This document shows positions 30,231 to 63,184 of a DNA stretch of 64,000 bases, piece by piece. A model generated the notes under the pieces. It did not search any database. It saw nothing but the letters and a program-made list of their open reading frames with translations, and had not been told where the DNA came from. The stretch is taken from IMG/VR virus record IMGVR_UViG_3300046007_007003, one strand, 5' to 3'. Position 1 is the first letter of the stretch, and the number at the start of each line of letters is the position of its first letter. Origin of the DNA: an uncultured virus (IMG/VR IMGVR_UViG_3300046007_007003). Its lineage: Duplodnaviria; Heunggongvirae; Uroviricota; Caudoviricetes. The translations under genes were made by a program, and so were the position numbers.

Positions 30231-30668
30231 TCATGCGATCCTTATGATCGCAGTGGAAGCATCCGCCACAGGGAAGATCACCGTGAAAGTGCCGCTCGTC
30301 GAGGTCTTAGCCCCGCCAAAGTCCAGCACGCACACCGTTGGATTGCCCGCCGCCGTGTCGTTGTAGATCAGCGCGCCATAGGCGGTGATCGTCGCCGACG
30401 TGAACGAGATGTCCGCGAAGTCGGTGAACGCCGTCGTGCCGCTCGTCGTCGGGTCAACCCGCGTCAGCGACCCACCACCCGCAACATACGACCCCGACGC
30501 AGCAACCTCGTTGGTCGCCGTGTACGCCGTCGTCGCAGCAGTGAAGGACGCGCTGTTGTCATAGAGCGCCAGCTTGAAGTCATCTCCGCCCGAGTTGCGG
30601 AAATCGTGGATTCCCTCAAGAAGCTCCTTCTTGAAGGACGTACACAAAAAATTGCCCGAGAAGCTCAT
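30231..30668 (-). CDS. Virion structural protein
   Basis: CTSFKKELL.G.HDF...FKLALY, GALIYN...LDFG..KTS...FP motif. Confidence 0.7.
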   Translation of the reverse strand: MSFSGNFLCTSFKKELLEGIHDFRNSGGDDFKLALYDNSASFTAATTAYTATNEVAASGSYVAGGGSLTRVDPTTSGTTAFTDFADISFTSATITAYGALIYNDTAAGNPTVCVLDFGGAKTSTSGTFTVIFPVADASTAIIRIA

Positions 30669-31240
30669 GAGATTTTCCTTTCAACCTCAATGGGTTGCGA
30701 TAGTTTTCTGGCCGCCCACCACGCCGTCATGCGAACCGACTGTTCTTCCCGAAGCCGTTGCTGCGTTGCGCGCATTCGGGCTATTGTCTCCTCTGAGTGG
30801 CGCTTACCAAACCGATGCGATTTTTCCACCGGCAGTCCTTTGTTCCACGGAACCAGCCCCTTCTTAAACTCTGTGGCTGGGGAGTTTCTCCCCCTTTTCT
30901 CCGCAGAAGCTGACATTTTTTTCTTGGCTTCCTCGGTGTACCGAAACTCTTTACGAAGCTGTTTTACCCGTATACGCTCCGACTCAAAAATCTTGGACTT
31001 GTACTGTACCAATCTTCCCATAAGAATTAGAGCAAACCAGAGCCCACGGTTTTGAGGGTAGATCCGGACAAGCAGCTTGTGCGCAAAGAGATGTTCCCTA
31101 GGGGTCAACAAAACGAGATTTTCTTTCCCACACGAACCCCCCACACACTTCGGGATAATGTGGTGCCGTTCAAAAACAGGAGGCTTGGGACGAATCTTCG
31201 CCCTCTCCACAAGCCTGCGGTAAACGACGGCATAATCCAC
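30665..31240 (-). CDS. Free-standing HNH homing endonuclease with NUMOD3-like repeats
   Basis: ERHHIIPKCVGG...NLVLLTPREHLFAH; PWNKG, FGKRHSEET; more AT-rich than flanks. Confidence 0.85.
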   Translation of the reverse strand: MDYAVVYRRLVERAKIRPKPPVFERHHIIPKCVGGSCGKENLVLLTPREHLFAHKLLVRIYPQNRGLWFALILMGRLVQYKSKIFESERIRVKQLRKEFRYTEEAKKKMSASAEKRGRNSPATEFKKGLVPWNKGLPVEKSHRFGKRHSEETIARMRATQQRLREEQSVRMTAWWAARKLSQPIEVERKIS

Positions 31241-36356: not shown

Positions 36357-36953
36357 TCAGGCGTAGCCGTAGATCTCGATCAGAAGGCGACCAGCAGTGT
36401 AGGCGGCGTTCGACGTGCCCTGACCAACTAGATACAGATACTGGTTCGCAGCGATATCCGTGCCGAACACCGTAGTGCCAAGCGCCAGAGTGCCAGAGTT
36501 GATGATCTGGGTCTCGGTCAAAGCCGTAATCGCGCTGTCCTCCACGCCCGTGCCCTCGGTCGCCGAGTAAAGGTCGATGTCGGTGTCGCCGCCCGCCGGA
36601 ACCTCGTAACAGGTCATCTTGACGCCGAACACCGTGCCGTTATCGGCCGTGGTAATGCGAGCGATGTACGCCACGCCAGAGCCGTTCTTGCCGATGATGT
36701 CGCCCGCCGTGCCGCCAGACTGAAGGCCGGTCAGGTCAATCATGATCGAGGTGGTGACGATGCCGTTCTCGGTCTTCACCGAGGTCTCGTACACCGCAGC
36801 GGCGCCCTCGATCCCCGCGCCGGTAGCGGCAGGGTTGGCAATGGCAGCGGCGCTTTCACTGACGATTGTGATCGCGCCGGTAGTGGCGTTTTTGTTTACG
36901 GTTTGGAACCCGTTTTGGGATTGTACGGGACCGGTGAAAAAAGTTGTAGCCAC
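36357..36953 (-). CDS. Virion structural (capsid-associated) protein
   Basis: GTG start with AAGGAG RBS; MATTFFTGPV N-terminus. Confidence 0.6.
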   Translation of the reverse strand: MATTFFTGPVQSQNGFQTVNKNATTGAITIVSESAAAIANPAATGAGIEGAAAVYETSVKTENGIVTTSIMIDLTGLQSGGTAGDIIGKNGSGVAYIARITTADNGTVFGVKMTCYEVPAGGDTDIDLYSATEGTGVEDSAITALTETQIINSGTLALGTTVFGTDIAANQYLYLVGQGTSNAAYTAGRLLIEIYGYA

Positions 36954-37540
36954 GGCAGTGTCTCCTTCTGTGGGCTGTACTGGAGCGCAAGCTTACGGGC
37001 ACTGCTTGTGTCCGTTCCCACAACACGCCCGCGCTCCGCGTATGACATGTGTGGATTATCCACGATGAACCGCACTTTTGCAATGAACTCTGGGTCGTTG
37101 TGCCATCTTTTTCTCTGGGCAGCAGCCAGCCGAGCTCGATACTCTTCCGTCACATGATCCGTCCGACCAACCTTTTTCCGACTGATCTGCTGTTTGGTGG
37201 CCTCCGAGTGCTTCTTCCCGCGCATCGGAACCTTCGCCTCGTTCGCTATGTTGTAGGCTAGTGGTTCATTGAACCATGCCTCTCCGCACAAAAAGGCGTT
37301 TTCAATGGTGTCTAGATCGCTTGGGTCAACGCACTCAACCTCAACCTCCCACCGAAAAGCCTCTTCGCCATGTTTGTTGAAAGAGCGCTGTAGGTGCTGA
37401 TTGGGGTGCTTACCTAGGCGAAGCAGCCTAAAGTGTTCACCAACCCGCTTTTTGATCCGAAGAGATTGTCCGACATACGCCTTGTTCGAGATCGTATTAA
37501 CGATCTTATAGATCCCCATGATTTCGTCGGCGTATGGCAT
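36896..37540 (-). CDS. GIY-YIG homing endonuclease with NUMOD3
   Basis: GIYKIVN...YVGQS..IKKR..EH...H.N..LQ..FNKHG; MRGKKHSEAT. Confidence 0.88.
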   Translation of the reverse strand: MPYADEIMGIYKIVNTISNKAYVGQSLRIKKRVGEHFRLLRLGKHPNQHLQRSFNKHGEEAFRWEVEVECVDPSDLDTIENAFLCGEAWFNEPLAYNIANEAKVPMRGKKHSEATKQQISRKKVGRTDHVTEEYRARLAAAQRKRWHNDPEFIAKVRFIVDNPHMSYAERGRVVGTDTSSARKLALQYSPQKETLPWLQLFSPVPYNPKTGSKP

Positions 37541-37646: not shown

Positions 37647-38486
37647 CTAGACGTACTCAAAGCGCCAGCCCTTGTAGGGGCCTTTTGCCAAAGGTTTTCC
37701 GCTTCTGACGGACCGCTGCACTGTCGGCAAAAAGATCCCCAACTGCTCCTTGATCGCGGTCGTCCTCGGGAACACCGTGACTTCTCCATCCGGAGAGATC
37801 ATGCGAACAGGCTGGCCCATCTTGGCCTTCGACTCTTCGCTGTGGCTCTTTCCCGCCCAATGCTTGTTCCCCTTCTGAGCGTCAGACAACTTTCTCCGGT
37901 GCTCCTCAGAGCGAATGTGCCCTTTGGCATTCTTGTTGCCCTTTAGTGCCAAAGACATCTTGGCGCGGGTCTCCTCCGAAGGGATAAACCTCCCGCCACG
38001 GCCCTCGGCCAGCGCGGCTTGGACCTTGGCACGGATCTTCTCCTTCGCTTCTTCGCTGTGTTTGTGTCCGGTTCGTGGGTCCGACACCTCCCACTGACGA
38101 GTCGTAGCCTCGCTCAGAAGAGCCTTCTGTTCGTCGGAGATGGATCGGCCAGTTAAGGGCGACAGCCCAGTCCCTTTGGTGCCGCGCCACGGGGCACGAG
38201 CGCTACGGCCATGGTTGTAGCACTCGGGCGTGCCGACGTACTTTAACAGCCAGCCATCTTCCGCACTTTCCAACAATTCTCTGCTGGGCACTTGTTCTAC
38301 AACCTCAAACTTGAAGACGTCTTCACCGTACTTGTTCCACGCGTTCTGCAAATGCTTGCAGTGGTGCGTGCCGTTCCGAAGAAGCCTTCGGTGTCGCCGA
38401 AACCGCGTGCGCGTATCAACTGCGCTTCCAACGTAAAACTTACCATCCACGACGTTTCGAATTTTGTAGATCACGTTTTGGGACAT
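37647..38486 (-). CDS. GIY-YIG homing endonuclease with several NUMOD3 repeats
   Basis: VIYKIRN...FYVGSA...RF..H; GHKHSEE, GHIRSEE, GKSHSEE. Confidence 0.88.
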   Translation of the reverse strand: MSQNVIYKIRNVVDGKFYVGSAVDTRTRFRRHRRLLRNGTHHCKHLQNAWNKYGEDVFKFEVVEQVPSRELLESAEDGWLLKYVGTPECYNHGRSARAPWRGTKGTGLSPLTGRSISDEQKALLSEATTRQWEVSDPRTGHKHSEEAKEKIRAKVQAALAEGRGGRFIPSEETRAKMSLALKGNKNAKGHIRSEEHRRKLSDAQKGNKHWAGKSHSEESKAKMGQPVRMISPDGEVTVFPRTTAIKEQLGIFLPTVQRSVRSGKPLAKGPYKGWRFEYV

Positions 38487-41610: not shown

Positions 41611-42054
41611 TCACATGCTCAAGATGTCGTCGGGATCAAGGATCGTTGCGATGATCTCATCGTCGTTCAGAACCCGAACCTCCCCGCCGTCAATGCGGAA
41701 ACGAGATCCAGCATACCGCGCAAAGATCACCCAGTCCCCCGCCTTGCACCACGGACCGTCCGGAAACTTGGCCGTGTCAGCATAACACAGCGGGCCCGTT
41801 TTCAGAACGTAGCCGACAACCGTCGCAAGTTGGCTGTTATCGACAACTTGATCCGGCAGAAGAACCCCTCCCGAGGTCCTGTTCTTGCCGCGGTAGGGCA
41901 GAATCATCAGTCGCCACCCAGTCGGGTCGGGCATCCTGTCCAAAAGAGACTTGTCGATCTTGGTAGGATCTAAAACGCGCTCTTCCGGGGCAACGTACAG
42001 GTCTACAAGACCCTTTGCCACCTCCTCCAAGTCAGTTTTAGCTATCTTAGTCAT
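41611..42054 (-). CDS. groES: Co-chaperonin GroES-like protein
   Basis: PTGWRL.I.P...TSGGVLLP...VLKTGP...GDWVIF.RYAG......LNDDEI. Confidence 0.85.
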   Translation of the reverse strand: MTKIAKTDLEEVAKGLVDLYVAPEERVLDPTKIDKSLLDRMPDPTGWRLMILPYRGKNRTSGGVLLPDQVVDNSQLATVVGYVLKTGPLCYADTAKFPDGPWCKAGDWVIFARYAGSRFRIDGGEVRVLNDDEIIATILDPDDILSM

Positions 42055-42244
42055 CAACCAGCTCCCGCTTCTCCAAAAAGTCATTGAGCGCTTGCGCGGT
42101 GTAGTTCAGCGAAGCCAACTCCCCCATCAGGTAGCGATAGTGCTCCATACTGGTCAGACCGTTCAATTCGAGCACTTCCATAATGTGCTCTCGACGGTCC
42201 CGAAGCGCTTTCTGGAGATGTTGGGCAAGCTGAAGAACGTCCAT
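42047..42244 (-). CDS. Small hypothetical protein
   Basis: 65 aa; MEHYRYLMGE; overlaps the GroES start. Confidence 0.7.
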   Translation of the reverse strand: MDVLQLAQHLQKALRDRREHIMEVLELNGLTSMEHYRYLMGELASLNYTAQALNDFLEKRELVDD

Positions 42245-42424
42245 TCGCAGATACCCGCATCAGATCGTATTCTGTGTGGGTATTTATCTAGCACGTCTGA
42301 AAATATCGCACAACATGCTTAAGAGGTATATTGACCTCCACTCGAATATGCGATTTACTGCGCCTTTTCGCTTCTTTTCTGGCTGGCGGGAAGGGGACAG
42401 GGGATGGAAAAAGTGCTCCATCCC

Positions 42425-43345
42425 CTACTTCCCAAGTAGTTTTGCAAGCGTCTTGGGCCCGGCAACGCCGTCAGGCGTCAGCCCTTGGCTTTGCTGCCAC
42501 GCGCGGAGGGCTTTTTCGGTGCCGGGGCCGAAGCTGCCGTCGGCTGCGATGCCGAGGGCTTTTTGGAGGGCGGCGACTTCTTCACCACGGCTTCCAACGC
42601 GGAGGACTTGAGATCCTCCACCTTGTCCTTCACCGCTTCCTCCACCTTGTCCTCGATCTTGTCGAGAACCTTCCCCGCCACTGCTTCCACCACCATTCCC
42701 TGCGGTGTTTTGCCCAGCAAGGATCGCAAGAGCTTCATCATAGCGTTTTCTCCTATCCGGCAGGCCAATGTCCCCGCCGTTGATGATCTTGGTGACGCGC
42801 GCAACATCGCCCGTGTCCGCCACTTCGTTGAGGCCGCGGGACTGCCAAAACCATAGTGCAGATACCAACGCCCCTTCCTTGGTCTCCAGATACGCAGCAA
42901 CCTCTTCGGCAGTCTTGCCGATTGCCTTCCCGAACGTCGTATAGTTCGAGCGACCCGTGACCTGCTTCAAGCCACGACCGCGAAACCGCCAGCCGTCGCC
43001 CTCTTGAACGTTCCCAAGCGCACCGCTCGAAGAACGATTCTTATCCATGTAAACGTAGTTAGCGATCTTCTCAGGATTTTTGGCGTACTCGGCAGCATTT
43101 GCCTTGCCCGGGCCAAAGTAGCGCGGGAAGACGCGGAGCAACGTCTCTTCCTTGTAGTTCAGGTTCTCTTCGAGGAGCTTGAAATCGGCGCTCTCGTGGG
43201 CACACTGACTCAAGAAGGACGCAACCCGACGCGGCGAAGTAATGCCGTACTTCGGCAACAGGTCGTTAAGGACCGCACACCACTCCGCAGCGTCCTTATT
43301 GGTCGATAGGATCTTCGCAAGTTGGGCTTCCGTCAGAAGTGTCAT
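42425..43345 (-). CDS. Endolysin: GH19 domain, Gly-rich linker, peptidoglycan-binding domain
   Basis: FLSQCAHES, EENLNY, GDGWRFRGRGLKQVTGR, INGG; LQ.ALG..ADG.FGP.T...DGVAGP.T. Confidence 0.9.
   Translation of the reverse strand: MTLLTEAQLAKILSTNKDAAEWCAVLNDLLPKYGITSPRRVASFLSQCAHESADFKLLEENLNYKEETLLRVFPRYFGPGKANAAEYAKNPEKIANYVYMDKNRSSSGALGNVQEGDGWRFRGRGLKQVTGRSNYTTFGKAIGKTAEEVAAYLETKEGALVSALWFWQSRGLNEVADTGDVARVTKIINGGDIGLPDRRKRYDEALAILAGQNTAGNGGGSSGGEGSRQDRGQGGGSGEGQGGGSQVLRVGSRGEEVAALQKALGIAADGSFGPGTEKALRAWQQSQGLTPDGVAGPKTLAKLLGK
42478..42741 (-). CDS. 87-aa protein nested out of frame in the endolysin gene
   Basis: AGGAG-8nt-ATGATG; MMKLLRSLLGKTPQGMVVEAVAGKVLDKIEDKVEEAVKDKVEDLKS is protein-like. 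Confidence 0.6.
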   Translation of the reverse strand: MMKLLRSLLGKTPQGMVVEAVAGKVLDKIEDKVEEAVKDKVEDLKSSALEAVVKKSPPSKKPSASQPTAASAPAPKKPSARGSKAKG

Positions 43346-43354
43346 TCTCTCTAC

Positions 43355-43807
43355 CTACTCACACCACGAAGATTTTTTCTCGCCCTTGTACGGCCGGGCG
43401 TGGCCGTTCTCGATCAGCAGGTCTGACAAGCTCTTGCCGTCAAGGAAGACGTAACCCAAAACCCTGCCGCCGTACTTGTCCCATTCCTTGATCTGCACGT
43501 CGATCACCGTGGCGCTGGCGATTGCGGCCTTGGTGAACGCGCTCGCCTCAAGTGCCTTACCCGCCTCGGCGGGGCACAGAGCTCGCGGTGCCTTCTCTGG
43601 GGTGTCCACCCCCAATACACGAATGGACAGCTTGGGCGGCAGTGGGGCTGGCAAGAACCCCACTGCGATCTCTATCGTGTCGCCGTCTATGATGCGGTTG
43701 ACCTTGTACGGTTCAGCAGACGCGCTAAAGCCGAGGAAGATGAGTATCAACGACTTGGTCAAGATGGCGATGACCGCCATCCAGTGGGGTATCCAGTGGG
43801 CCATCAT
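43355..43807 (-). CDS. Thermonuclease (SNase-like) with N-terminal hydrophobic segment
   Basis: IIDGDT, IRVLGVDTPE, DKYGGRVLG, LIENGHA. Confidence 0.85.
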   Translation of the reverse strand: MMAHWIPHWMAVIAILTKSLILIFLGFSASAEPYKVNRIIDGDTIEIAVGFLPAPLPPKLSIRVLGVDTPEKAPRALCPAEAGKALEASAFTKAAIASATVIDVQIKEWDKYGGRVLGYVFLDGKSLSDLLIENGHARPYKGEKKSSWCE

Positions 43808-44082
43808 TCGGAGCCGCCAGCCGGGGGTTCAGGCGCCTTTTCCTGCCCGCGACGTGTGGCGAGCATGATGCCCGACAGCGTTCCGGTGAGGAACGTCGCG
43901 ATGGGCTGGATCAGTTCGAAGAACTTCTCGTCGTTCGGAGCGCTGCCATTCATCGGCTGGGTCACGAAGATCAGGCTGTAGAGAACAGCGAAGATCGTGC
44001 CGGTCAGCGTCAGCGCAAGGCAGATGCCGACAAAGAAGCGCAGTTTGGCCTCCAAGGCATCGGCGTAGTCGTCAACCTTCAT
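43804..44082 (-). CDS. Two-TM membrane protein (holin candidate)
   Basis: Two hydrophobic segments; lysis region. Confidence 0.55.
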   Translation of the reverse strand: MKVDDYADALEAKLRFFVGICLALTLTGTIFAVLYSLIFVTQPMNGSAPNDEKFFELIQPIATFLTGTLSGIMLATRRGQEKAPEPPAGGSE

Positions 44083-44311
44083 TTGTCACTCCTCCCCTCT
44101 CAATGAGGTAATCAGTACAGGTTCCAGACGCCTCACACACGGGAGGCATACACTGAGGATCCGACCACATCTCCGGATCTTGGCACTGATAGCGGTAGAA
44201 TCCGTCACCAGCCACATAGACCATGTAGCTGAACACAGATACGGCAAACGCCAAGGCAACGAACGGACCATAGGTGATTAGGCCCCAAGCGGCGCGGATC
44301 ATGCGTCTCAT
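44072..44311 (-). CDS. Membrane protein with Cys-rich C-terminus
   Basis: TM segment then YRYQCQDP..W...C.PP.C..SG.C. Confidence 0.6.
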   Translation of the reverse strand: MRRMIRAAWGLITYGPFVALAFAVSVFSYMVYVAGDGFYRYQCQDPEMWSDPQCMPPVCEASGTCTDYLIERGGVTNEG

Positions 44312-44787
44312 CAGTACCCCTCATTGTTGGCATAGTACAGGAAGACGATCAGGCCAATCATGCCAGCAATCGAAGATACCATCAAGAAAATCAAAAGTAC
44401 ACTTACCAACATCTCCTTAACTTCGGCCTGACGGTGCTCGTGAGCCTGACGACGCTTGCGGATGTCCGCTTCCATCTTCAAGAACTCGTTCCAGCCGCTT
44501 TGCCCGTAGCTGTACTGGATGTAGGTGCGCAACTCATTGCGCTGCGCTTCAATCCGCTTCTTCGCCGCGAAGACCTCCATGGCCTCCGCCTGCGCATTAC
44601 CCCCAAACGCCTTGTACCAAGGAGGGTCCGAAGCCTTCTTTTCGTGAAACTCCAGATCGGAAATCGCGCTGGCCCACTGCGAAAGCTGGCCACCCATGTC
44701 CTGAAGTTCCCGCCCAATCTCAATGCCTTTCTTGAGGGCATTGTAGGCGCTGCTCGCAAGAGCTATCGCGCTGATTGGGTCGAGCAT
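44311..44787 (-). CDS. Membrane-anchored hypothetical protein
   Basis: MLDPIS N-terminus, coiled coil, C-terminal TM. Confidence 0.7.
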   Translation of the reverse strand: MLDPISAIALASSAYNALKKGIEIGRELQDMGGQLSQWASAISDLEFHEKKASDPPWYKAFGGNAQAEAMEVFAAKKRIEAQRNELRTYIQYSYGQSGWNEFLKMEADIRKRRQAHEHRQAEVKEMLVSVLLIFLMVSSIAGMIGLIVFLYYANNEGY

Positions 44788-44791
44788 GGCA

Positions 44792-45016
44792 TCATTTCCT
44801 CAATGCCTGCTCTATACTGTCGAGCTTCGCAAACACGGCCTTGAAACCCTCCCGGATCTCCTTGAACTCGCGGTCATGCGCCTGCTTCGTCGTCTCGACA
44901 ACAGCCTTCAAAACCGCAATTTCCGTGCTCTGCTGCTGAACGCGGCTGTGCAAAAGCCAGACAAAGCCAGCTACAGGCGCAACAACCCACTGCATGATCG
45001 CGTTCAGAACGTCCAT
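44792..45016 (-). CDS. Small TM + coiled-coil protein
   Basis: 74 aa; hydrophobic N-terminus; KLDSIEQALRK. Confidence 0.6.
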   Translation of the reverse strand: MDVLNAIMQWVVAPVAGFVWLLHSRVQQQSTEIAVLKAVVETTKQAHDREFKEIREGFKAVFAKLDSIEQALRK

Positions 45017-45018
45017 TC

Positions 45019-45189
45019 TCAGCCCCGACGCCTCGACTTTCCGGCCTGAGACAGCGCAATCGCAATCGCCTGATCCCGACTCTTCACAACAGGAGCCTTC
45101 TTCGGACCCTTCGGATCGCGGCCCGCGTGCAACGTCCCGCGCTTGAACTCGCCCATGACCTTGGCGACCTTGTCCTTTTTCTTCGCCAC
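45019..45189 (-). CDS. Small basic protein, DUF6496-like (not in ORF track)
   Basis: GTG start; KVAKVMGEFKRGTLH...VKSRDQAIAIALSQAG. Confidence 0.7.
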   Translation of the reverse strand: MAKKKDKVAKVMGEFKRGTLHAGRDPKGPKKAPVVKSRDQAIAIALSQAGKSRRRG

Positions 45190-45191
45190 GG

Positions 45192-45392
45192 TCACACACT
45201 CACATACCGGCCACCGCGCTCGGCAGCACCCATGCCACGCTTCTTGCCCACGGTCCGCGAACCGCGGCTCGTGTTCGGCGTCGCCATGTCCTCAAGCGAC
45301 GCATAGGGAATGCTCCCCTGCCGCTCAATCACCGCAACCTTGCTCGGCTTCGGCGCCGGACCAGCCGGAGCGCCCTGAAACTTGACCTTCAT
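45192..45392 (-). CDS. Small basic protein
   Basis: Overlaps the portal stop; ends RGMGAAERGG. Confidence 0.6.
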   Translation of the reverse strand: MKVKFQGAPAGPAPKPSKVAVIERQGSIPYASLEDMATPNTSRGSRTVGKKRGMGAAERGGRYVSV

Positions 45393-47908
45393 ACCGGCCT
45401 CCTATTCGGTAGTGCAGGCGGACGCTGCGCCGCTACACGGAGTTGCATCTGTGCGCGCATTGTCTCACGTTCCGCGGCCGCACGCAACTTTTCACGCGCC
45501 AATTCCTCGGTTTGGCGCATCCTCGCGTTGAACTCGCGAGCCCGCTCGTCCAGCTTCTGACGCTCCAGTTGCAGATCCGCGCGATCCTTCTGAATAGACG
45601 CCTCGGCCTGCATCCGGCGAATGCCAAGCTCCTCCTGCTTGAGCGCAACCAACGGATCAGGGCCCTCGCCTTCCCCAGTAGAAGCAATCTGGGCGGTCAG
45701 AACCTTCAGGTTCTGCATCTCCTCGGCAATGTATTGCGCAACCAACCCGTCAATCTGCGCCATCATGTCAGGGCTAAGTTGCGGAGCACCCTGCGGACCC
45801 ATCATCTGCGGGCCAAGCATCTGCATCGCCTCCGCCATCGCACGCTCCTGCGCCTTGAACTTGGCGTGCTCCATGACATGCTTCTGCAACGACACCGCAA
45901 CAGGAATGGATTGCGCCACAAGCGCCGACGACCCGAAAACAAGATGCGCCATAATGTGCGCGTCGTGGTTCTGGCCCTCAAACGCCATCAACTGCACCTG
46001 ATTGAGCGCGTCGATGTTCTCCTGAGCAGGGTCCTTCGGCTGCGGCTGACCCTCGTCCTTCGGCTTCAACAAACGGTCGACGTCGCGCACACCAAGCGCG
46101 TCGTACATCCGATAAAACGCCTCGTACACGTCGTGCAGGTCCGGCGCCTGCATCGCCATCTGCAACTGAGCCTGCGCCAAGGCAATCCGTTGCGACTGAC
46201 TGAAGATGTTCGGGTCAGAAACAGGAACAATGTCCACACGGTCGTCAAAATCCGCCGCCATAACCGTCTGATCCGCACCCGCAATCGAATACGGATACAC
46301 AGGAGGCAGCGTTTCCGCCATCACACGCGCCAGAATCTTGAACTCCTGACGCATCGCGTAGTGCAGGCGCTTGTGGATCGCACTCATCACCCGAGTGCCC
46401 TGCTCCAACAGCGCAATCGTCGTCCCAACAGCCGCCTGCTCGTTGCTGTCGCCAACCTTCAGGTCCGTAATCGTCGCAAACCGCTGACCCGCCTGAACCA
46501 CAAAACCCAACAGGTTCATCAGCGTCGCAGACGGCTCCTTGAACGGCAACGGCATCAATCCGTCCCGAATAGCCCCGCCCGGACTGTCTACATCCCGAAA
46601 TTCACCCGGCTGGATCGGCGACTCGTCGTCCCTGATCCGTAGGCCGCGGATCTTGAACCCCGCAGGAAGGTTGGACAGCGTCCCAGCGTCAATCAACTGC
46701 CGCAAAGCCGCCGTCGCCGTCCGCGACAACCCACCAATCGTGTGGATCAAGCCCAAACCGTAGAAACCAAAACCCGGCAGGAACTTGTAATGCACGAAAT
46801 AGTGGATCTTCCGACGCATCGGATCGTCCTCGCGGTAGTTCCGACGTATCGCCAAAACCTTCCCGCTATCCTCAACCACCGTCACAATGTACGGCAGCCG
46901 AATCCCAGTCTCCTCGTCATCCTCTCCACGGTCCTCGAACCCCGGAAGGTCCAAATCGACGTGAAATTCTAGCAAAGTCACGTCATAGTCGATGTTCGTC
47001 GGGCTCTGACCCTTAATCAGGTCCTCAATCTCGGTCGTGTCGTCCGCACGAGCCGCCGCAGGCTGAACAGGAACGTCCAAATAGAAGCCCGAAACCTGCA
47101 TCTTGCGGACGTCGTTCCACGGCAGACGGACCATCTGCGCCACAAACGGCGCCGTGGCCAGATCCGAGGCGTCATACGGCACAACCAAGTTCTCAGCAGG
47201 CACGAACCGCGAGACAGGACGCCCCAAACTCTCGTCAAAGTAGACTTTTTTGAAGGAACTACCAGCAAGAGGCAAGTGGAAGAGCAACTGATCGAACTCC
47301 GGAGTGTACTCCTCCATCTCGTTCATCAGGTAGTAGTTCATAAAGTCCTTGACGCGCCGCCCTTGGGCCTCTTTTTCCCGCGTCCGATCCCCCAAAACCT
47401 GCGTCCGAACCGGACCCTCCGCCGGAAGAAGCTCGTTGAAGGCCTGTGCCTGAAATTGTGTCGCAGCCTCGGCCAAAAGCGGATGCGTCACACCCGTCGC
47501 ACCACGGAAAGGCTGCGTCCGCTCCTCGTATTTGAAGCCCAGAAGCTCCAAACCCTTGGAATATTCCTCCTCCCAGTCCCCACGACTGCCCTTTGCCGCG
47601 TCAAATTGCGCCATCAGGTCGTTCGCAAGCACCCCAAGGTCGGAATCGGTCATAAATTCAGCCAAGTTGGCCGAAAACTCCGCCCCCGCCGCGTCATCGC
47701 GTTCGTCAGCGTCAAACTCGACGGTCACGCTACCGTCGTCCTCCATCTCAATCTCAATGCCCGGAGGCAACGGACGCTCAAGGTCCACCGCCGTTCCGGG
47801 CATCTCGATCTCAAGATCCGCCATCATGTCGGCGCGCATCTCTTCCGACTCAGGGCTCCGAGAACGCTCGACAAAGGAAACAGGCGTATTGCGGGGAGGT
47901 ATGGCCAT
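45389..47908 (-). CDS. Portal protein
   Basis: 839 aa; HPLLAEA..QFQA, LPLAGS.FKKVY, GFYGLG, LRQLIDAG. Confidence 0.85.
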   Translation of the reverse strand: MAIPPRNTPVSFVERSRSPESEEMRADMMADLEIEMPGTAVDLERPLPPGIEIEMEDDGSVTVEFDADERDDAAGAEFSANLAEFMTDSDLGVLANDLMAQFDAAKGSRGDWEEEYSKGLELLGFKYEERTQPFRGATGVTHPLLAEAATQFQAQAFNELLPAEGPVRTQVLGDRTREKEAQGRRVKDFMNYYLMNEMEEYTPEFDQLLFHLPLAGSSFKKVYFDESLGRPVSRFVPAENLVVPYDASDLATAPFVAQMVRLPWNDVRKMQVSGFYLDVPVQPAAARADDTTEIEDLIKGQSPTNIDYDVTLLEFHVDLDLPGFEDRGEDDEETGIRLPYIVTVVEDSGKVLAIRRNYREDDPMRRKIHYFVHYKFLPGFGFYGLGLIHTIGGLSRTATAALRQLIDAGTLSNLPAGFKIRGLRIRDDESPIQPGEFRDVDSPGGAIRDGLMPLPFKEPSATLMNLLGFVVQAGQRFATITDLKVGDSNEQAAVGTTIALLEQGTRVMSAIHKRLHYAMRQEFKILARVMAETLPPVYPYSIAGADQTVMAADFDDRVDIVPVSDPNIFSQSQRIALAQAQLQMAMQAPDLHDVYEAFYRMYDALGVRDVDRLLKPKDEGQPQPKDPAQENIDALNQVQLMAFEGQNHDAHIMAHLVFGSSALVAQSIPVAVSLQKHVMEHAKFKAQERAMAEAMQMLGPQMMGPQGAPQLSPDMMAQIDGLVAQYIAEEMQNLKVLTAQIASTGEGEGPDPLVALKQEELGIRRMQAEASIQKDRADLQLERQKLDERAREFNARMRQTEELAREKLRAAAERETMRAQMQLRVAAQRPPALPNRRPV

Positions 47909-62088: not shown

Positions 62089-63184
62089 CTATCCTTTCAT
62101 GTTGAACTTGATGACCTGACCGAACGGCGCATGGCGCAGGCCGCACGACACCCAGAGGACGGGGTAGTCGGGCGCATCTTTTGGGAAGTCGTTGATCTCA
62201 AGGTCGGTGAAGCTGATGAAGTGATCGACCTCGATCTGATTGTCTTCGATGTAGTCAAACACCGGCCTGACGAGGGTGCCGCCCCGGCCCTTGGCGTTGA
62301 GCATGGTGATCGGTTCGCCCTCTTCGTATCGGGTGACCGACTGGATCGAGTAGTCGCAGGCGATGACTGTGATGCTGGCGGGGCGCAGTTCCTCTGCCAG
62401 TGCGTTCATGGCACCGAGAAAGTAGGTCAGTGCCTTGTCGCTCACCGAGCCGCTGGTGTCGTTGTGGATGACGATGTGCCCGACACCCTTGCGGTCTGAG
62501 GTGGGGGCGATGATCCGGCTGAGGTGATACATCTTCCGGTTGGGTCGACGCATACTGTAGTCGTCTGGCTGGTCGCCTGTGAGGTGGCGACGGATCGCAT
62601 CCTCGAAGTTTATCTCGGGGTCTTGCATCTCGCGGATCATTTCATACGCCCACCCCGGCAGCTTGCCGCGACCCTTGGCTATTGCCGACGCCATGATCAC
62701 GCGCTGCTGGACCTTGATTTCCTCTTGCTTCTTCTCCTCTTCGGACATCTCAGGCTCGAACACCAAGCCCCATGCTGGGGGGGGCTATGTCGTCCGGCAG
62801 GAGATCGTAGATTTTCTCTGCCGAGTATTCCGCGAACAGCGGCATATCGATGCCGCCATCCGGCAATTCGAAACCATCCGCCTTCAGGATGTTGTTGATC
62901 GCCGCATCGCAGGCGATGTTCCACTTGTCGTGGTTGCGGTTGCCCTTGCGGAGATGATGTCGCAGGGCGATGTGCAGAACCTCGTGCGCGATGAGGCCGA
63001 GGGTCTTCGGCTCTGTCAGGGTGTCGATGAAGGGACCGGACCACTTGATCCAGTCGCCATTCGTTGCTGCTGTCCCCATGGTGTCGTCGCGGCTAACGTC
63101 GGAGCCCATCGCGAGCGAACCATAGAAGGGGTGATGCAGGACGAGCCGGGTCATAGCCCGGCTGACCTTGAGTTCTGGTGTCAT
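62089..63184 (-). pseudogene. DUF2201-type metallopeptidase + vWA gene split by a frameshift in a C8 run
   Basis: N half TAATNG, AHEVLH, WNIACD..IN; C half DTSGSV, GRGGT, FTD; deleting one C at 62777-62784 fuses the two ORFs. Confidence 0.75.

What the first reader, a model, noticed from the sequence alone, without database searches (positions are those of the whole stretch)
42478..42741. Second overprinted gene inside the endolysin linker and PG-binding domain
Seen: the linker GNGGGSSGGEGSRQDRGQGGGSGEGQGGGS is the shifted reading of MMKLLRSLLGKTPQGMVVEAVAGKVLDKIEDKVEEAVKDKVEDLKS..., an amphipathic K/E/D/V-rich 87-aa ORF. Its ATGATG lies 8 nt after AGGAG, which is formed by AGG AGA Arg codons in the lysin frame. 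Established: lysis genes are often nested (Rz/Rz1), but this ORF has no lipobox Cys or TM. Inference: a real nested lysis accessory protein, or a formerly downstream gene read through to join the PG-binding domain to the GH19 domain.
Basis: partly seen in the sequence, partly recalled or inferred. Interest (0 to 1): 0.7.

Follow-up and report, generated by a model that had tools for sequence, protein, structure and literature searches.

The report
Real hidden gene inside endolysin linker
A freshwater phage's cell-wall-cutting enzyme gene carries a second, genuinely selected small gene, read one base out of step across the enzyme's floppy linker, and this hidden gene appears to stand in for a separate small lysis gene that related phages keep next door.

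Summary
An 87-codon ORF (42478..42741, minus strand) lies in the +1 frame of a GH19-linker-PG_binding_1 endolysin (42425..43345). AGGAG sits 8 nt before its ATG and is made of the lysin's only two AGR arginine codons.

It is more than chance. In 13 distinct related lysins the selection signal changes frame exactly at that ATG. dN/dS for lysin frame / +1 frame is 0.08 / 2.3 in the GH19 domain and 5.4 / 0.19 across the linker. Parsimony steps at lysin codon positions 1/2/3 go from 107/75/534 to 95/41/12 (Fisher 5e-54). SD and ATG are present in 13 of 13.

The product is a cationic, helical protein with no TM segment, no Cys and no known family. Every relative found is nested in this lysin clade.

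Sister phages with a short linker lack the nested ORF. Instead, 64 of 68 loci carry a free-standing 57-92 aa cationic helical gene ("S") between the holin-like gene and the nuclease or lysin. The nested-ORF clade has lost S. Similarity between the two families is weak but collinear.

Best reading: a real overprinted lysis-cassette gene that replaces S. Its biochemical role (disruptin-like or holin-regulating) is inferred, not shown.

The parts
42425..43345 (-). Endolysin gene, 306 aa: GH19 catalytic domain (aa 1-213), G/S/E/Q-rich linker (about aa 214-247), PG_binding_1 domain (aa 254-303).
   Evidence: phrog_181 endolysin 5e-73 over aa 1-213. Pfam PG_binding_1 4e-14 over aa 254-303. Glyco_hydro_19 is weak, 20.5 bits against a cutoff of 25.5. 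dN/dS 0.08 in nt 1-600.
42478..42741 (-). Nested +1-frame gene, 87 codons plus TGA. Predicted short N-terminal basic helix, one long amphipathic helix (aa 13-53) and a basic disordered tail.
   Evidence: Open in 13 of 13 distinct relatives, and in every partial locus as far as its DNA reaches. +1-frame dN/dS 0.19-0.22. AF2 model is helical but of low confidence, pLDDT 56. Net charge +2 to +8.
42577..42741 (-). Constrained core of the nested gene (its codons 1-55). Here the lysin's wobble positions are almost invariant.
   Evidence: Per-codon map: lysin position-3 diversity is 0-0.15 at codons 202-248 (one exception, codon 204) and at codons 251-253 and 255-256, against 0.33-0.50 elsewhere. Parsimony steps 95/41/12 against 107/75/534.
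42749..42754 (-). Shine-Dalgarno AGGAGA of the nested gene, built from lysin Arg codons 198-199 (AGG AGA), 8 nt before the ATG.
   Evidence: Invariant at all six bases in 13 of 13 distinct relatives. These are the only AGR codons among the lysin's 19 Arg codons. AGR makes up 14% of Arg codons in 16 long genes of the window. The short-linker clade has CGN CAR at this place and AGGAG in 0 of 56.
42605..42706 (-). Lysin interdomain linker (aa 214-247). It is about 18-20 aa longer than in sister phages, has no indels in 12 of 13 relatives, and evolves as if non-coding in the lysin frame.
   Evidence: Alignments. Lysin-frame dN/dS 5.4 across nt 604-741. Sister lysins have 12-25 aa A/P-rich linkers.
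43804..44082 (-). Holin-like 2-TM gene (92 aa). Its end overlaps the start of the next gene, so the slot that sister phages fill with the free-standing S gene is empty here.
   Evidence: phrog_25359. Two hydrophobic segments by inspection. The 2-TM gene abuts the SNase gene or the lysin in 19 near-clade loci. Sister loci have the order 2-TM, S, (SNase), lysin.
43355..43807 (-). SNase-family nuclease gene (150 aa) with a hydrophobic N-terminus, lying between the holin-like gene and the lysin.
   Evidence: Pfam SNase 2e-10 and phrog_452 7e-21.

Best explanation
The 87-codon ORF is a genuine, separately initiated protein-coding gene overprinted on the endolysin gene.

Shown by comparison:
- Selection keeps its SD, its ATG and the amino-acid sequence of its first ~55 residues.
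- Over the same bases the lysin linker drifts freely.
- The arrangement is reciprocal. The nested protein's ordered helix overlaps the lysin's disordered linker, and its disordered basic tail overlaps the lysin's ordered PG-binding domain.
- The geometry makes this cheap. The second base of each nested codon is the wobble base of a lysin Gly/Ser codon, and the nested wobble base is the first base of a linker codon.

Inferred: ribosomes start at the internal AGGAGA-N7-ATG on the late lysis mRNA and make a ~9 kDa cationic helical protein alongside the lysin.

Inferred from phyletic pattern: it does the job of the free-standing small cationic helical gene (S) that sister phages carry between the holin-like gene and the nuclease or lysin, and that this clade has lost.

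Most speculative step: the protein acts on membranes at lysis, either weakening the outer membrane like a disruptin or tuning the holin. Which of the two cannot be told from sequence.
For: Frame-specific selection, 13 distinct lysins. dN/dS for lysin / +1 / +2 frames:
- GH19: 0.081 / 2.32 / 2.64.
- nt 604-741: 5.42 / 0.186 / 1.62.
- nt 742-864: 0.305 / 1.74 / 1.35.

Parsimony steps at lysin positions 1/2/3 are 107/75/534 in GH19 and 95/41/12 in nt 604-741, Fisher 5e-54.

Six-frame test on 12 sequences: only the lysin and +1 frames are open in 12 of 12, and only the +1 frame has low dN/dS (0.22). The antisense frame with dN/dS 0.38 has stops in 7 of 12.

The switch begins exactly at the ATG. 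Codons 198-199 (the SD) are invariant at all positions.

SD and ATG are present in 13 of 13 near-clade lysins. Among 56 short-linker lysins, AGGAG is present in 0 and ATG in 34.

The linker has no indels in 12 of 13. The one deletion is 12 nt, in frame for both genes.

An independent data source agrees. In Logan contigs of three DNA runs, a variant contig differs at 11 places inside nt 604-741: 9 at lysin position 1, 2 at position 2, 0 at position 3. All 5 differences just outside are at position 3.

Evidence that it replaces S:
- S was found in 64 of 68 short-linker loci. In 21 its stop overlaps the lysin start, and in 43 the SNase gene follows it.
- S was found in 0 near-clade loci, 0 of 5 near-clade records (four of them 82-92% complete) and not in the window. 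The positive control gave 4 of 4.
- The nested clade is monophyletic inside S-bearing lineages.
- Both families are 57-92 aa, net positive, helical and free of TM segments.
- The S HMM aligns collinearly to nested residues 3-61 at 5.6-15 bits. Empirical p is <0.0005 to 0.007 against whole-sequence and segment-preserving shuffles.
Against: - There is no direct evidence of translation. No isolate, proteome or ribosome profile exists.
- The loss of S and the gain of the nested gene map to one branch. That is one evolutionary event, so the complementarity could be coincidence.
- Profile-profile comparison does not support full-length homology: hhalign aligns only 14 columns, with probability 18-25%.
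- The resemblance to S was noticed before it was tested, so the shuffle p-values are post hoc.
- Two short-linker loci (L055, L071) have neither S nor a nested ORF.
- S co-occurs with a lipobox protein in about 20 sister loci. This argues against S being simply a spanin substitute.
- Both AF2 models are of low confidence, pLDDT 56 and 58.
- 3 of the 14 nested proteins have net charge of only +2 to +3.
Confidence: 0.7

Rival explanations
1. The +1 frame is reached by programmed +1 ribosomal frameshifting at the tandem AGG AGA codons, not by internal initiation. This would give a second lysin isoform: GH19 catalytic domain fused to a cationic amphipathic C-terminal helix in place of the linker and PG-binding domain.
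For: - AGG AGA is invariant, and the +1 frame is open for 20-75 codons upstream of the ATG in all 13 relatives.
- SD-like sequences and tandem rare Arg codons are known stimulators of +1 shifting (recalled: prfB; AGG-AGG in E. coli).
- Cationic amphipathic C-termini on Gram-negative phage lysins are discussed as an outer-membrane-crossing device in the spanin review (PMC6139136, passage read).
Against: - AGR codons are not rare in this phage: 83 of 591 Arg codons in 16 genes.
- There is no stop codon or slippery motif after the site.
- SD-to-ATG spacing of 8 nt is what initiation needs, and ATG is kept in 13 of 13.
- The two +1 codons just before the ATG are unconstrained.
- The putative functional counterpart S is a free-standing protein.
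Confidence: 0.1
2. The nested gene is real, but its function has nothing to do with lysis or with S. The absence of S in this clade is coincidental.
For: - Only one evolutionary transition links the two traits.
- hhalign support is weak.
- No family or structural match gives a function.
- The lysin sits inside the head-morphogenesis module, between portal and capsid genes.
Against: - It is co-transcribed with, and physically inside, the lysin.
- S occupies the slot between the holin-like gene and the lysin in 64 loci, overlapping the lysin start in 21.
- It shares size, charge pattern and helical character with S, and shows collinear weak similarity to it.
Confidence: 0.15
3. There is no second protein. 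The conserved wobble bases reflect an RNA structure, a regulatory site or repeat homogenisation in a low-complexity linker, and the ORF is a by-product of GGN-rich coding.
For: - GGN-rich linkers read in +1 necessarily give V/A/E/G-rich, stop-poor frames (inference from the code).
- The segment contains a near-duplicate GACAAGGTGGAGGA.
Against: - The variability pattern is that of coding in +1: +1 position 3 > position 1 > position 2 = 0.30 / 0.16 / 0.04.
- Replacements in +1 are conservative (V/I/L, K/Q/R, D/E), while lysin-frame changes are radical.
- The RNA fold z-score is only -1.34.
- SD and ATG are conserved.
- The constraint begins at the ATG to the codon.
Confidence: 0.03

Closest known systems
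[quoted passage not shown] I saw only the title, in the reference list of PMC4353335. The details are recalled.
   Same: A second lysis-cassette gene lies wholly inside an endolysin gene in another reading frame on the same strand, with its own start.
   Different: hol187 encodes a membrane protein with TM segments, and is recalled to lie under the catalytic 5' part of the gene in a Gram-positive phage. The ORF here has no TM segment. It lies under the interdomain linker and the start of the binding domain of a GH19 lysin, in phages whose only host clue is one relative on a Pseudomonadota MAG contig. Its reality rests on comparative selection, not on experiment.
Rz/Rz1-type embedded spanin genes (PMC6139136, passages read)
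   Same: An out-of-frame gene is nested within another lysis gene. One partner is rich in disorder-promoting residues where it overlaps the other's structured part, which is the Rancurel principle cited in that paper.
   Different: Rz1 is an outer-membrane lipoprotein with a lipobox Cys, and its host gene is the i-spanin. The ORF here has no Cys at all, and its host gene is the endolysin.
Disruptin gp28 of phage phiKT (Holt et al., bioRxiv 10.1101/515445, abstract and passages read)
   Same: Small, strongly cationic (gp28 is +7), with basic clusters at the N-terminus and C-terminus, predicted amphipathic helix, no TM segment or signal sequence, encoded with the lysis genes. An ad hoc scan found no plausible lipoprotein (spanin) ORF on the gene strand of this 64-kb window.
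   Different: 87 aa against 56 aa. The middle of the protein is net acidic (-2 to -4). No sequence relationship was tested or known. Outer-membrane disruption is untested. The counterpart S co-occurs with a lipobox protein in about 20 sister loci.
In-frame secondary translation products of endolysin genes: CTP1L (PMC4777826) and LysIME-EF1 (PMC7098653). I saw only the search listing and abstract starts.
   Same: An internal ribosome-binding site and start inside an endolysin gene near the linker yield a second polypeptide from the same mRNA.
   Different: Those products are in frame and are the lysin's own binding domain. Here the product is out of frame and unrelated in sequence to the lysin.
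Free-standing S family of sister phages
   Same: Lysis-cassette position, size (57-92 aa), net positive charge, basic N-terminus and basic tail, helical prediction, and weak collinear similarity.
   Different: S is a separate gene upstream of the nuclease or lysin. It has a conserved LPDP helix break and three predicted helices. Homology to the nested gene is not established: hhalign probability is 18-25%.

Membership tests
Overprinted (overlapping) protein-coding gene | Alternative frame open in all relatives that keep the host gene | tested here: met
   Open in 13 of 13 distinct full-length near-clade lysins and in all 12 further loci examined (one cut by a contig end). In a six-frame check, only the lysin and +1 frames are stop-free in 12 of 12.
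Overprinted (overlapping) protein-coding gene | Purifying selection specific to the alternative frame | tested here: met
   +1-frame dN/dS is 0.19 against 5.4 for the lysin frame across nt 604-741, and the reverse in GH19. Parsimony 95/41/12 against 107/75/534, Fisher 5e-54.
Overprinted (overlapping) protein-coding gene | Conserved own translation start signals | tested here: met
   AGGAG, 8 nt and ATG in 13 of 13. AGGAG in 0 of 56 short-linker lysins.
Overprinted (overlapping) protein-coding gene | Product detected (ribosome profiling, mass spectrometry, tagged protein) | not testable with these tools
   The phage is uncultivated. The one RNA-library run that was laid gave two tiny contigs, one bounded on both sides by adapter-like sequence, which says nothing.
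Embedded holin (hol187 type) | One or more transmembrane segments | tested here: not met
   No hydrophobic stretch. The highest 11-residue mean hydrophobicity is 0.50, and that window contains an Glu. The AF2 secondary structure is an amphipathic helix.
Spanin (o-spanin / u-spanin) | Lipoprotein signal with lipobox Cys | tested here: not met
   The protein contains no Cys.
Spanin (i-spanin) | N-terminal transmembrane anchor | tested here: not met
   The N-terminus MMKLLRSLLGK is basic and amphipathic, not a TM segment.
Disruptin (phiKT gp28 class) | Small, net cationic (the authors' screen was <80 aa and >= +4), predicted amphipathic helix, no TM segment or signal | tested here: inconclusive
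   87 aa, slightly over the authors' arbitrary cut. Net charge is >= +4 in 11 of 14 family members and +2 to +3 in 3. Helical in a low-confidence model. Criteria taken from passages of 10.1101/515445.
Disruptin (phiKT gp28 class) | Phage lacks spanins | tested here: inconclusive
   Two ad hoc lipobox scans of the 64-kb window found no plausible candidate on the gene strand. The rules were my own, and the window may not be the whole genome.
Disruptin (phiKT gp28 class) | Disrupts the outer membrane / complements a lambda Rz-Rz1 defect | not testable with these tools
   Needs the complementation assay described in 10.1101/515445.
S family (free-standing small lysis-cassette gene of sister phages) | Significant sequence or profile similarity | tested here: inconclusive
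   The HMMER S profile scores nested proteins at 5.6-15.0 bits, collinear, with shuffle p from <0.0005 to 0.007. hhalign aligns only 14 columns at probability 18-25%. The seed HMM did not report the nested ORFs at E <= 10 among all ORFs.
In-frame secondary translation product of an endolysin (CTP1L type) | Internal start in the lysin's own frame, giving its C-terminal domain | tested here: not met
   The start is in the +1 frame: offset 604 from the lysin ATG, and 604 mod 3 = 1.
GH19 + PG_binding_1 endolysin (the host gene) | Catalytic and binding domains recognised | tested here: met
   phrog_181 at 5e-73 and PG_binding_1 at 4e-14. Pfam Glyco_hydro_19 is below its cutoff, 20.5 against 25.5 bits.

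The most novel reading that the evidence does not exclude
A free-standing lysis gene has in effect been moved into the interdomain linker of the endolysin. Either a fragment of about 100 nt of an S-like gene was captured, or the function was re-invented there from a Gly-rich linker. The shifted reading of K/E/V/A/D-rich helical coding DNA is a stop-free G/E/S/Q linker, and the reverse also holds. Linkers of modular lysins would then be natural landing pads for small amphipathic lysis proteins. S (911 clusters) together with the nested form would make up a widespread, unrecognised class of non-TM cationic lysis proteins in freshwater phages, acting like disruptins or as holin regulators.
Probability: 0.3. 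Interest if true: 0.8.

Novelty: new variant of a known kind. Interest (0 to 1): 0.68.

Why it matters
Same-strand overlapping genes with long overlaps are routinely missed by annotation. None of the related public records examined annotates this gene or S. For example, S is unannotated in MW202675.1.

This is an unusually clean case. The frame of selection flips at a single codon. It illustrates how a disordered linker can host an ordered protein in another frame at almost no cost to either gene.

If the product, or its free-standing counterpart S, proves to be a lysis effector, that would add a new and abundant class of small lysis proteins. It would also give a lysin-silent genetic handle (TAT to TAC; AGG AGA to CGN CGN) for testing it.

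There is a practical caution for people who engineer or express modular lysins: a linker may encode something else.

Tried and rejected
Searches that gave nothing for the nested protein:
- Pfam and PHROGs: nothing below E 0.03.
- tblastn against 50,697 GenBank phage records: no match.
- Word-based search of 5.8 billion proteins: 6 hits, all of the 83-87 aa nested type.
- Profile search of 1.84 billion representatives: 4 hits. These were one nested type, one 77-aa variant (P0009), and two long repeat proteins that I take as spurious.
- ESM Atlas: no usable hit for the nested protein, and only unnamed clusters under 0.9 for S.
- A search for DNA encoding the P0009 variant found no locus with its different C-terminus.

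Structure:
- AF2 models of the nested protein and of S both have pLDDT under 60, so no fold search was run.
- Complex prediction was not used, because the report claims no binding.

Homology between the nested gene and S:
- hhalign gave only a weak local match.

Other checks:
- RNA structure as an explanation: z-score -1.34.
- Promoter and terminator scan of 42200..45400: nothing on the gene strand.
- Expression: the RNA run X17 gave two short contigs, one bounded on both sides by adapter-like sequence. This is no evidence for or against transcription.
- The window's own assembly is not held, so only related records were searched.
- A careful IQ-TREE run did not return, so the tree is FastTree only.
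- The search of earlier findings returned nothing.

Literature: two searches found no paper describing an out-of-frame gene in an endolysin linker. The library lacks most subscription journals.
Full report
**What is there**

The window is phage DNA. It carries DNA polymerase, helicases, primase, tail spike, capsid, portal and terminase genes, almost all on the minus strand.

At 42425..43345 (-) lies a 306-aa endolysin with three parts:
- a GH19-type catalytic domain, aa 1-213 (phrog_181, 5e-73; Pfam Glyco_hydro_19 only 20.5 bits against a cutoff of 25.5);
- a G/S/E/Q-rich linker, about aa 214-247;
- a PG_binding_1 domain, aa 254-303 (4e-14).

- It spans 42478..42741 (-), 87 codons, in the +1 frame of the lysin (offset 604).
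- It starts ATGATG. AGGAG lies 8 nt upstream and is formed by lysin codons 198-199, AGG AGA.
- The protein has no Cys and no hydrophobic segment.
- An ORF of this length in an alternative frame is common in this window: one search lists 227 ORFs of 90 aa or more. The ORF alone therefore proves nothing.

**Relatives**

Searching IMG/VR with the lysin gave 161 related stretches, of which the best 80 were kept. One further relative lies on a Pseudomonadota MAG contig. They fall into two groups.
- The "near clade" comprises L001-L012, the truncated L021 and further loci. Identity to the window lysin is 78-100%. All keep the long linker and the +1 ORF.
- The "short-linker clade" comprises 68 loci, L013-L081 without L021, at 61-67% identity. 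These have 12-25 aa A/P-rich linkers, and the +1 frame is broken by stops.

Searching directly with the nested protein, or with a profile of it, found only nested copies:
- 6 proteins among 5.8 billion;
- 13 viral and 14 metagenome loci.

I examined the 12 loci from these scans that were new, and in each the ORF lies inside a GH19-PG_binding_1 gene.

A profile search of 1.84 billion representatives added only a 77-aa variant, P0009, which has the same first ~40 residues and a different C-terminus. It also returned two long repeat proteins that I regard as spurious. There is no free-standing close homologue.

**Is it a gene?**

Thirteen distinct full-length near-clade lysins align without gaps, apart from one 12-nt deletion and the last codon.

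Pairwise Nei-Gojobori dN/dS:

| Region | Lysin frame | +1 frame | +2 frame |
|---|---|---|---|
| GH19, nt 1-600 | 0.081 | 2.32 | 2.64 |
| nt 604-741 (nested codons 1-46) | 5.42 | 0.186 | 1.62 |
| nt 742-864 | 0.305 | 1.74 | 1.35 |

- The selected frame flips from the lysin frame to the +1 frame, and then flips back.
- Fitch parsimony on a FastTree tree gives 107/75/534 steps at lysin codon positions 1/2/3 in GH19, against 95/41/12 in nt 604-741 (Fisher 5e-54).
- A per-codon map shows where the switch falls. The lysin wobble base varies normally up to codon 201. Codons 198-199 (the SD) are invariant at all three positions. From codon 202, whose TAT supplies the AT of the ATG, to codon 248 the wobble base is almost frozen, and again at codons 251-253 and 255-256.
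- In a six-frame test on 12 sequences, only the lysin and +1 frames are stop-free in all 12, and only the +1 frame shows purifying selection (0.22). The antisense frame with the expected artefactually low ratio (0.38) has stops in 7 of 12.
- No other part of the lysin shows suppressed wobble variation. Position-3 diversity is 0.33-0.50 in every 45-nt window of nt 1-585, so I see no "first" overprinted gene in this lysin.
- The RNA fold of the segment is unremarkable, z -1.34.
- Logan contigs of three DNA runs show the same pattern. One variant contig differs from the window at 11 places within nt 604-741: 9 at lysin position 1, 2 at position 2 and none at position 3. The 5 differences just outside are all at position 3. 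This variant may belong to a lineage already in my alignment, so it is supporting evidence rather than independent proof.

**Start signals**
- All 13 distinct near-clade lysins have Tyr as TAT followed by a G-initial codon (giving ATG), with AGGAG 8 nt upstream.
- Among 56 distinct short-linker lysins, the ATG is present in 34, since TAT+G arises easily there. AGGAG is present in none, and a weaker GGAG/GAGG in one. The equivalent codons there are CGN CAR.
- In the window lysin, AGG and AGA occur only at these two of its 19 Arg codons. AGR makes up 14% of Arg codons in 16 long genes.

**The protein**
- AF2 on the 14-sequence alignment gives a low-confidence model (pLDDT 56): helix 2-9, one long helix 13-53 and a disordered tail.
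- Net charge is +2 to +8. The N-terminus carries +3, the helical core -2 to -4 and the tail +1 to +7.
- The conserved part is residues 1-55. The tail, which overlaps the PG-binding domain, follows the lysin's constraints instead.
- The overlap is therefore reciprocally partitioned: ordered over disordered, then disordered over ordered. This is the pattern noted for overlapping genes generally in the abstract of PMC9119678 (seen in the search listing) and in the Rancurel reference discussed in PMC6139136 (passage read).
- The geometry explains the low cost. The second base of each nested codon is the wobble base of a linker codon, which is free for Gly. The nested wobble base is the first base of a linker codon, which toggles G/S/D/R/E/Q/N in a linker that tolerates it. 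This is inference from the code together with the alignments.

**The neighbouring gene that is missing**

In the short-linker clade a free-standing gene of 57-92 aa ("S") lies between the 2-TM holin-like gene and the SNase gene or the lysin. Its consensus is MIGRxIGMxxGRKxKEKAVDAVLDKVxLPDPVExAIK...KKxPxKRxKK.
- An HMM built from four seeds found S in 64 of the 68 loci.
- Of the four without it, L029 and L050 have only 292 and 107 nt of upstream DNA. L055 and L071 carry different membrane-protein genes there and have neither S nor a nested ORF.
- The stop of S overlaps the lysin start in 21 loci, and the SNase gene follows it in 43.
- No near-clade locus has S. In the 19 that contain the junction, the 2-TM gene abuts the SNase gene or the lysin directly. 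In the window, 43804..44082 overlaps the start of 43355..43807.
- Whole-record searches found S in 0 of 5 near-clade records, four of them 82-92% complete. As a positive control they found it in 4 of 4 short-linker records.
- On a lysin tree (FastTree, linker columns removed, rooted on the S-bearing record MW202675.1), the nested-ORF clade is monophyletic and sits among S-bearing lineages, with L048 and L041 nearest. That is one gain of the nested gene and one loss of S on the same branch.
- S is abundant, with 911 clusters at E <= 0.001. It has no meaningful name in any source, no PHROG and a low-confidence three-helix model. It is unannotated in MW202675.1.

**Are S and the nested gene related?**

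They share size, net positive charge (S: +1 to +7), a basic N-terminus, a basic tail, helicity and lack of TM segments.
- The S profile aligns collinearly to nested residues 3-61 at 5.6-15.0 bits.
- Against 2000 whole-sequence shuffles, p is below 0.0005 to 0.0025, with reciprocal p of 0.0005-0.0025.
- Against 3000 shuffles that preserve the three compositional segments, p is 0.0003-0.007.
- hhalign, however, aligns only 14 columns at probability 18-25%.
- I also chose this comparison after seeing the resemblance.

I therefore leave homology open, at roughly even odds against convergence.

One point favours local origin of at least the N-terminus. In short-linker lysins, the +1 reading of the same GH19 C-terminal helix is already M-x-R-L-W-R-H-W-V-A-R.

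One point favours capture of an S fragment. The replaced and expanded linker, about 100 nt, encodes just the part of the nested protein (residues 12-46) that aligns to the S core. Reading K/E/V/A/D-rich DNA one base back gives exactly a G/E/S/Q linker. No intermediate form was found.

**How it most likely works**

Shown: a selected +1-frame coding sequence with its own conserved SD and ATG inside the lysin gene.

Inferred: internal initiation on the lysis mRNA yields a ~9 kDa cationic helical protein together with the lysin.

Inferred from distribution: it substitutes for S.

Speculative: the biochemical role. Two known kinds of small non-TM lysis protein are candidates.
- One is the disruptin gp28 of phiKT: 56 aa, +7, basic clusters, amphipathic helix, no TM segment, and able to replace spanins (bioRxiv 10.1101/515445, passages read).
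- The other is a cytoplasmic holin regulator such as T4 RIII (recalled).
- For the disruptin idea: my ad hoc lipobox scans found no plausible spanin ORF on the gene strand of the window.
- Against it: S co-occurs with a lipobox protein in about 20 sister loci, and the helical core is net acidic.

**Rivals**
- A +1 frameshift at AGG AGA would give a GH19-amphipathic-helix isoform. It cannot be excluded by stops, because the +1 frame is open 20-75 codons upstream. It is disfavoured by the ordinary use of AGR codons, by the optimal SD-ATG spacing with a conserved ATG, and by the free-standing nature of S.
- A purely non-coding constraint is very unlikely given the +1 periodicity and the conservative +1 replacements.

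**Comparison and novelty**

Out-of-frame genes inside lysis genes are known: Rz1 in Rz, and hol187 in ply187 (title seen, details recalled). In-frame internal starts in endolysins are known as well (listing).

What differs here:
- the product is not a membrane-anchored protein;
- it sits under the interdomain linker;
- the constraint partition is reciprocal;
- it is complementary in distribution to a free-standing cassette gene.

Two literature searches found no description of such a case, but the library lacks most subscription journals. I rate it a new variant of a known kind.

**Limits**
- There is no translation evidence.
- The phage is uncultivated. Sixteen DNA runs, labelled mostly freshwater or lake and also biofilm, subsurface and wetland metagenomes, from at least 12 studies hold 83% or more of the sampled words.
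- The tree is FastTree only, and recombination among these phages could distort the parsimony counts. The pairwise statistics do not depend on the tree.
- The S/nested complementarity rests on a single evolutionary event.

Noticed in passing
L013:2370-2585, L024:2774-3004, L028:2744-3004, L077:2359-2586; also MW202675.1 3279-3503 (locus L111): The free-standing 57-92 aa cationic helical gene (S) lies between the holin-like gene and the nuclease or lysin in sister phages. It has 911 clusters in the large protein collection, and its only source names are 'hypothetical' or plainly wrong ones such as 'pyruvate carboxylase'. It is not annotated in the GenBank record.
   Followed up: yes
window 43355-43807 (-): A staphylococcal-nuclease-family gene with a hydrophobic N-terminus sits inside the lysis cassette, between the holin-like gene and the lysin. 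It is present in some relatives and absent in others, which suggests a secreted or membrane-anchored nuclease released at lysis.
   Followed up: partly
window 44072-44311 (-) and 44311-44787 (-): Two conserved small membrane proteins of unknown role lie upstream of the holin-like gene. One is a 79-aa N-terminal-TM protein with a Cys-rich motif (GDGFYRYxCQDPE...C..PPxC) conserved across both clades. The other is a 158-aa protein with a C-terminal TM segment (phrog_32327).
   Followed up: no
L024:139-575, L055:15-451; window 44792-45199 (-): Some sister phages have a 74-aa N-terminal-TM coiled-coil protein followed by a 71-aa lipobox protein (LLVAGC), which looks like a possible two-component spanin. 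The window keeps a homologue of the first as the C-terminal half of the 135-aa ORF, but has no homologue of the lipoprotein. Homologues of the lipoprotein were found in 22 short-linker loci and in no near-clade locus.
   Followed up: partly
protein P0009 (no DNA held): A 77-aa protein shares the first ~40 residues of the nested protein but has an unrelated C-terminus. This suggests a lysin variant with a different C-terminal domain, or an assembly artefact. No encoding locus was found.
   Followed up: partly
L055 and L071, upstream of 3001: Two short-linker lysins are preceded by a different pair of membrane-protein genes (128-142 aa and 150 aa). They have neither S nor the nested ORF, so the lysin travels with at least two kinds of cassette.
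   Followed up: no
window 30665-31240, 36896-37540, 37647-38486, 62089-62766 (all -): Four homing or HNH endonuclease genes are scattered through the structural and replication modules. Two of them are adjacent GIY-YIG-like genes just downstream of the major capsid gene.
   Followed up: no
window 42400-42424 (-): A perfect 9-bp GC-rich hairpin (GGGGATGGA ... TCCATCCCC) starts directly after the lysin stop codon and has no following U-run. It is followed by a gap of about 180 nt before the next gene.
   Followed up: no
window 41611-42084 (-): A GroES/Cpn10-like gene (Pfam Cpn10 4e-8) lies in the head module, between the lysin and the putative scaffold gene.
   Followed up: no
L028:2352-2747: One sister phage has an extra recognised holin (phrog_3427, 1.5e-32) between the 2-TM gene and S. 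This supports the view that this stretch is the lysis cassette.
   Followed up: no
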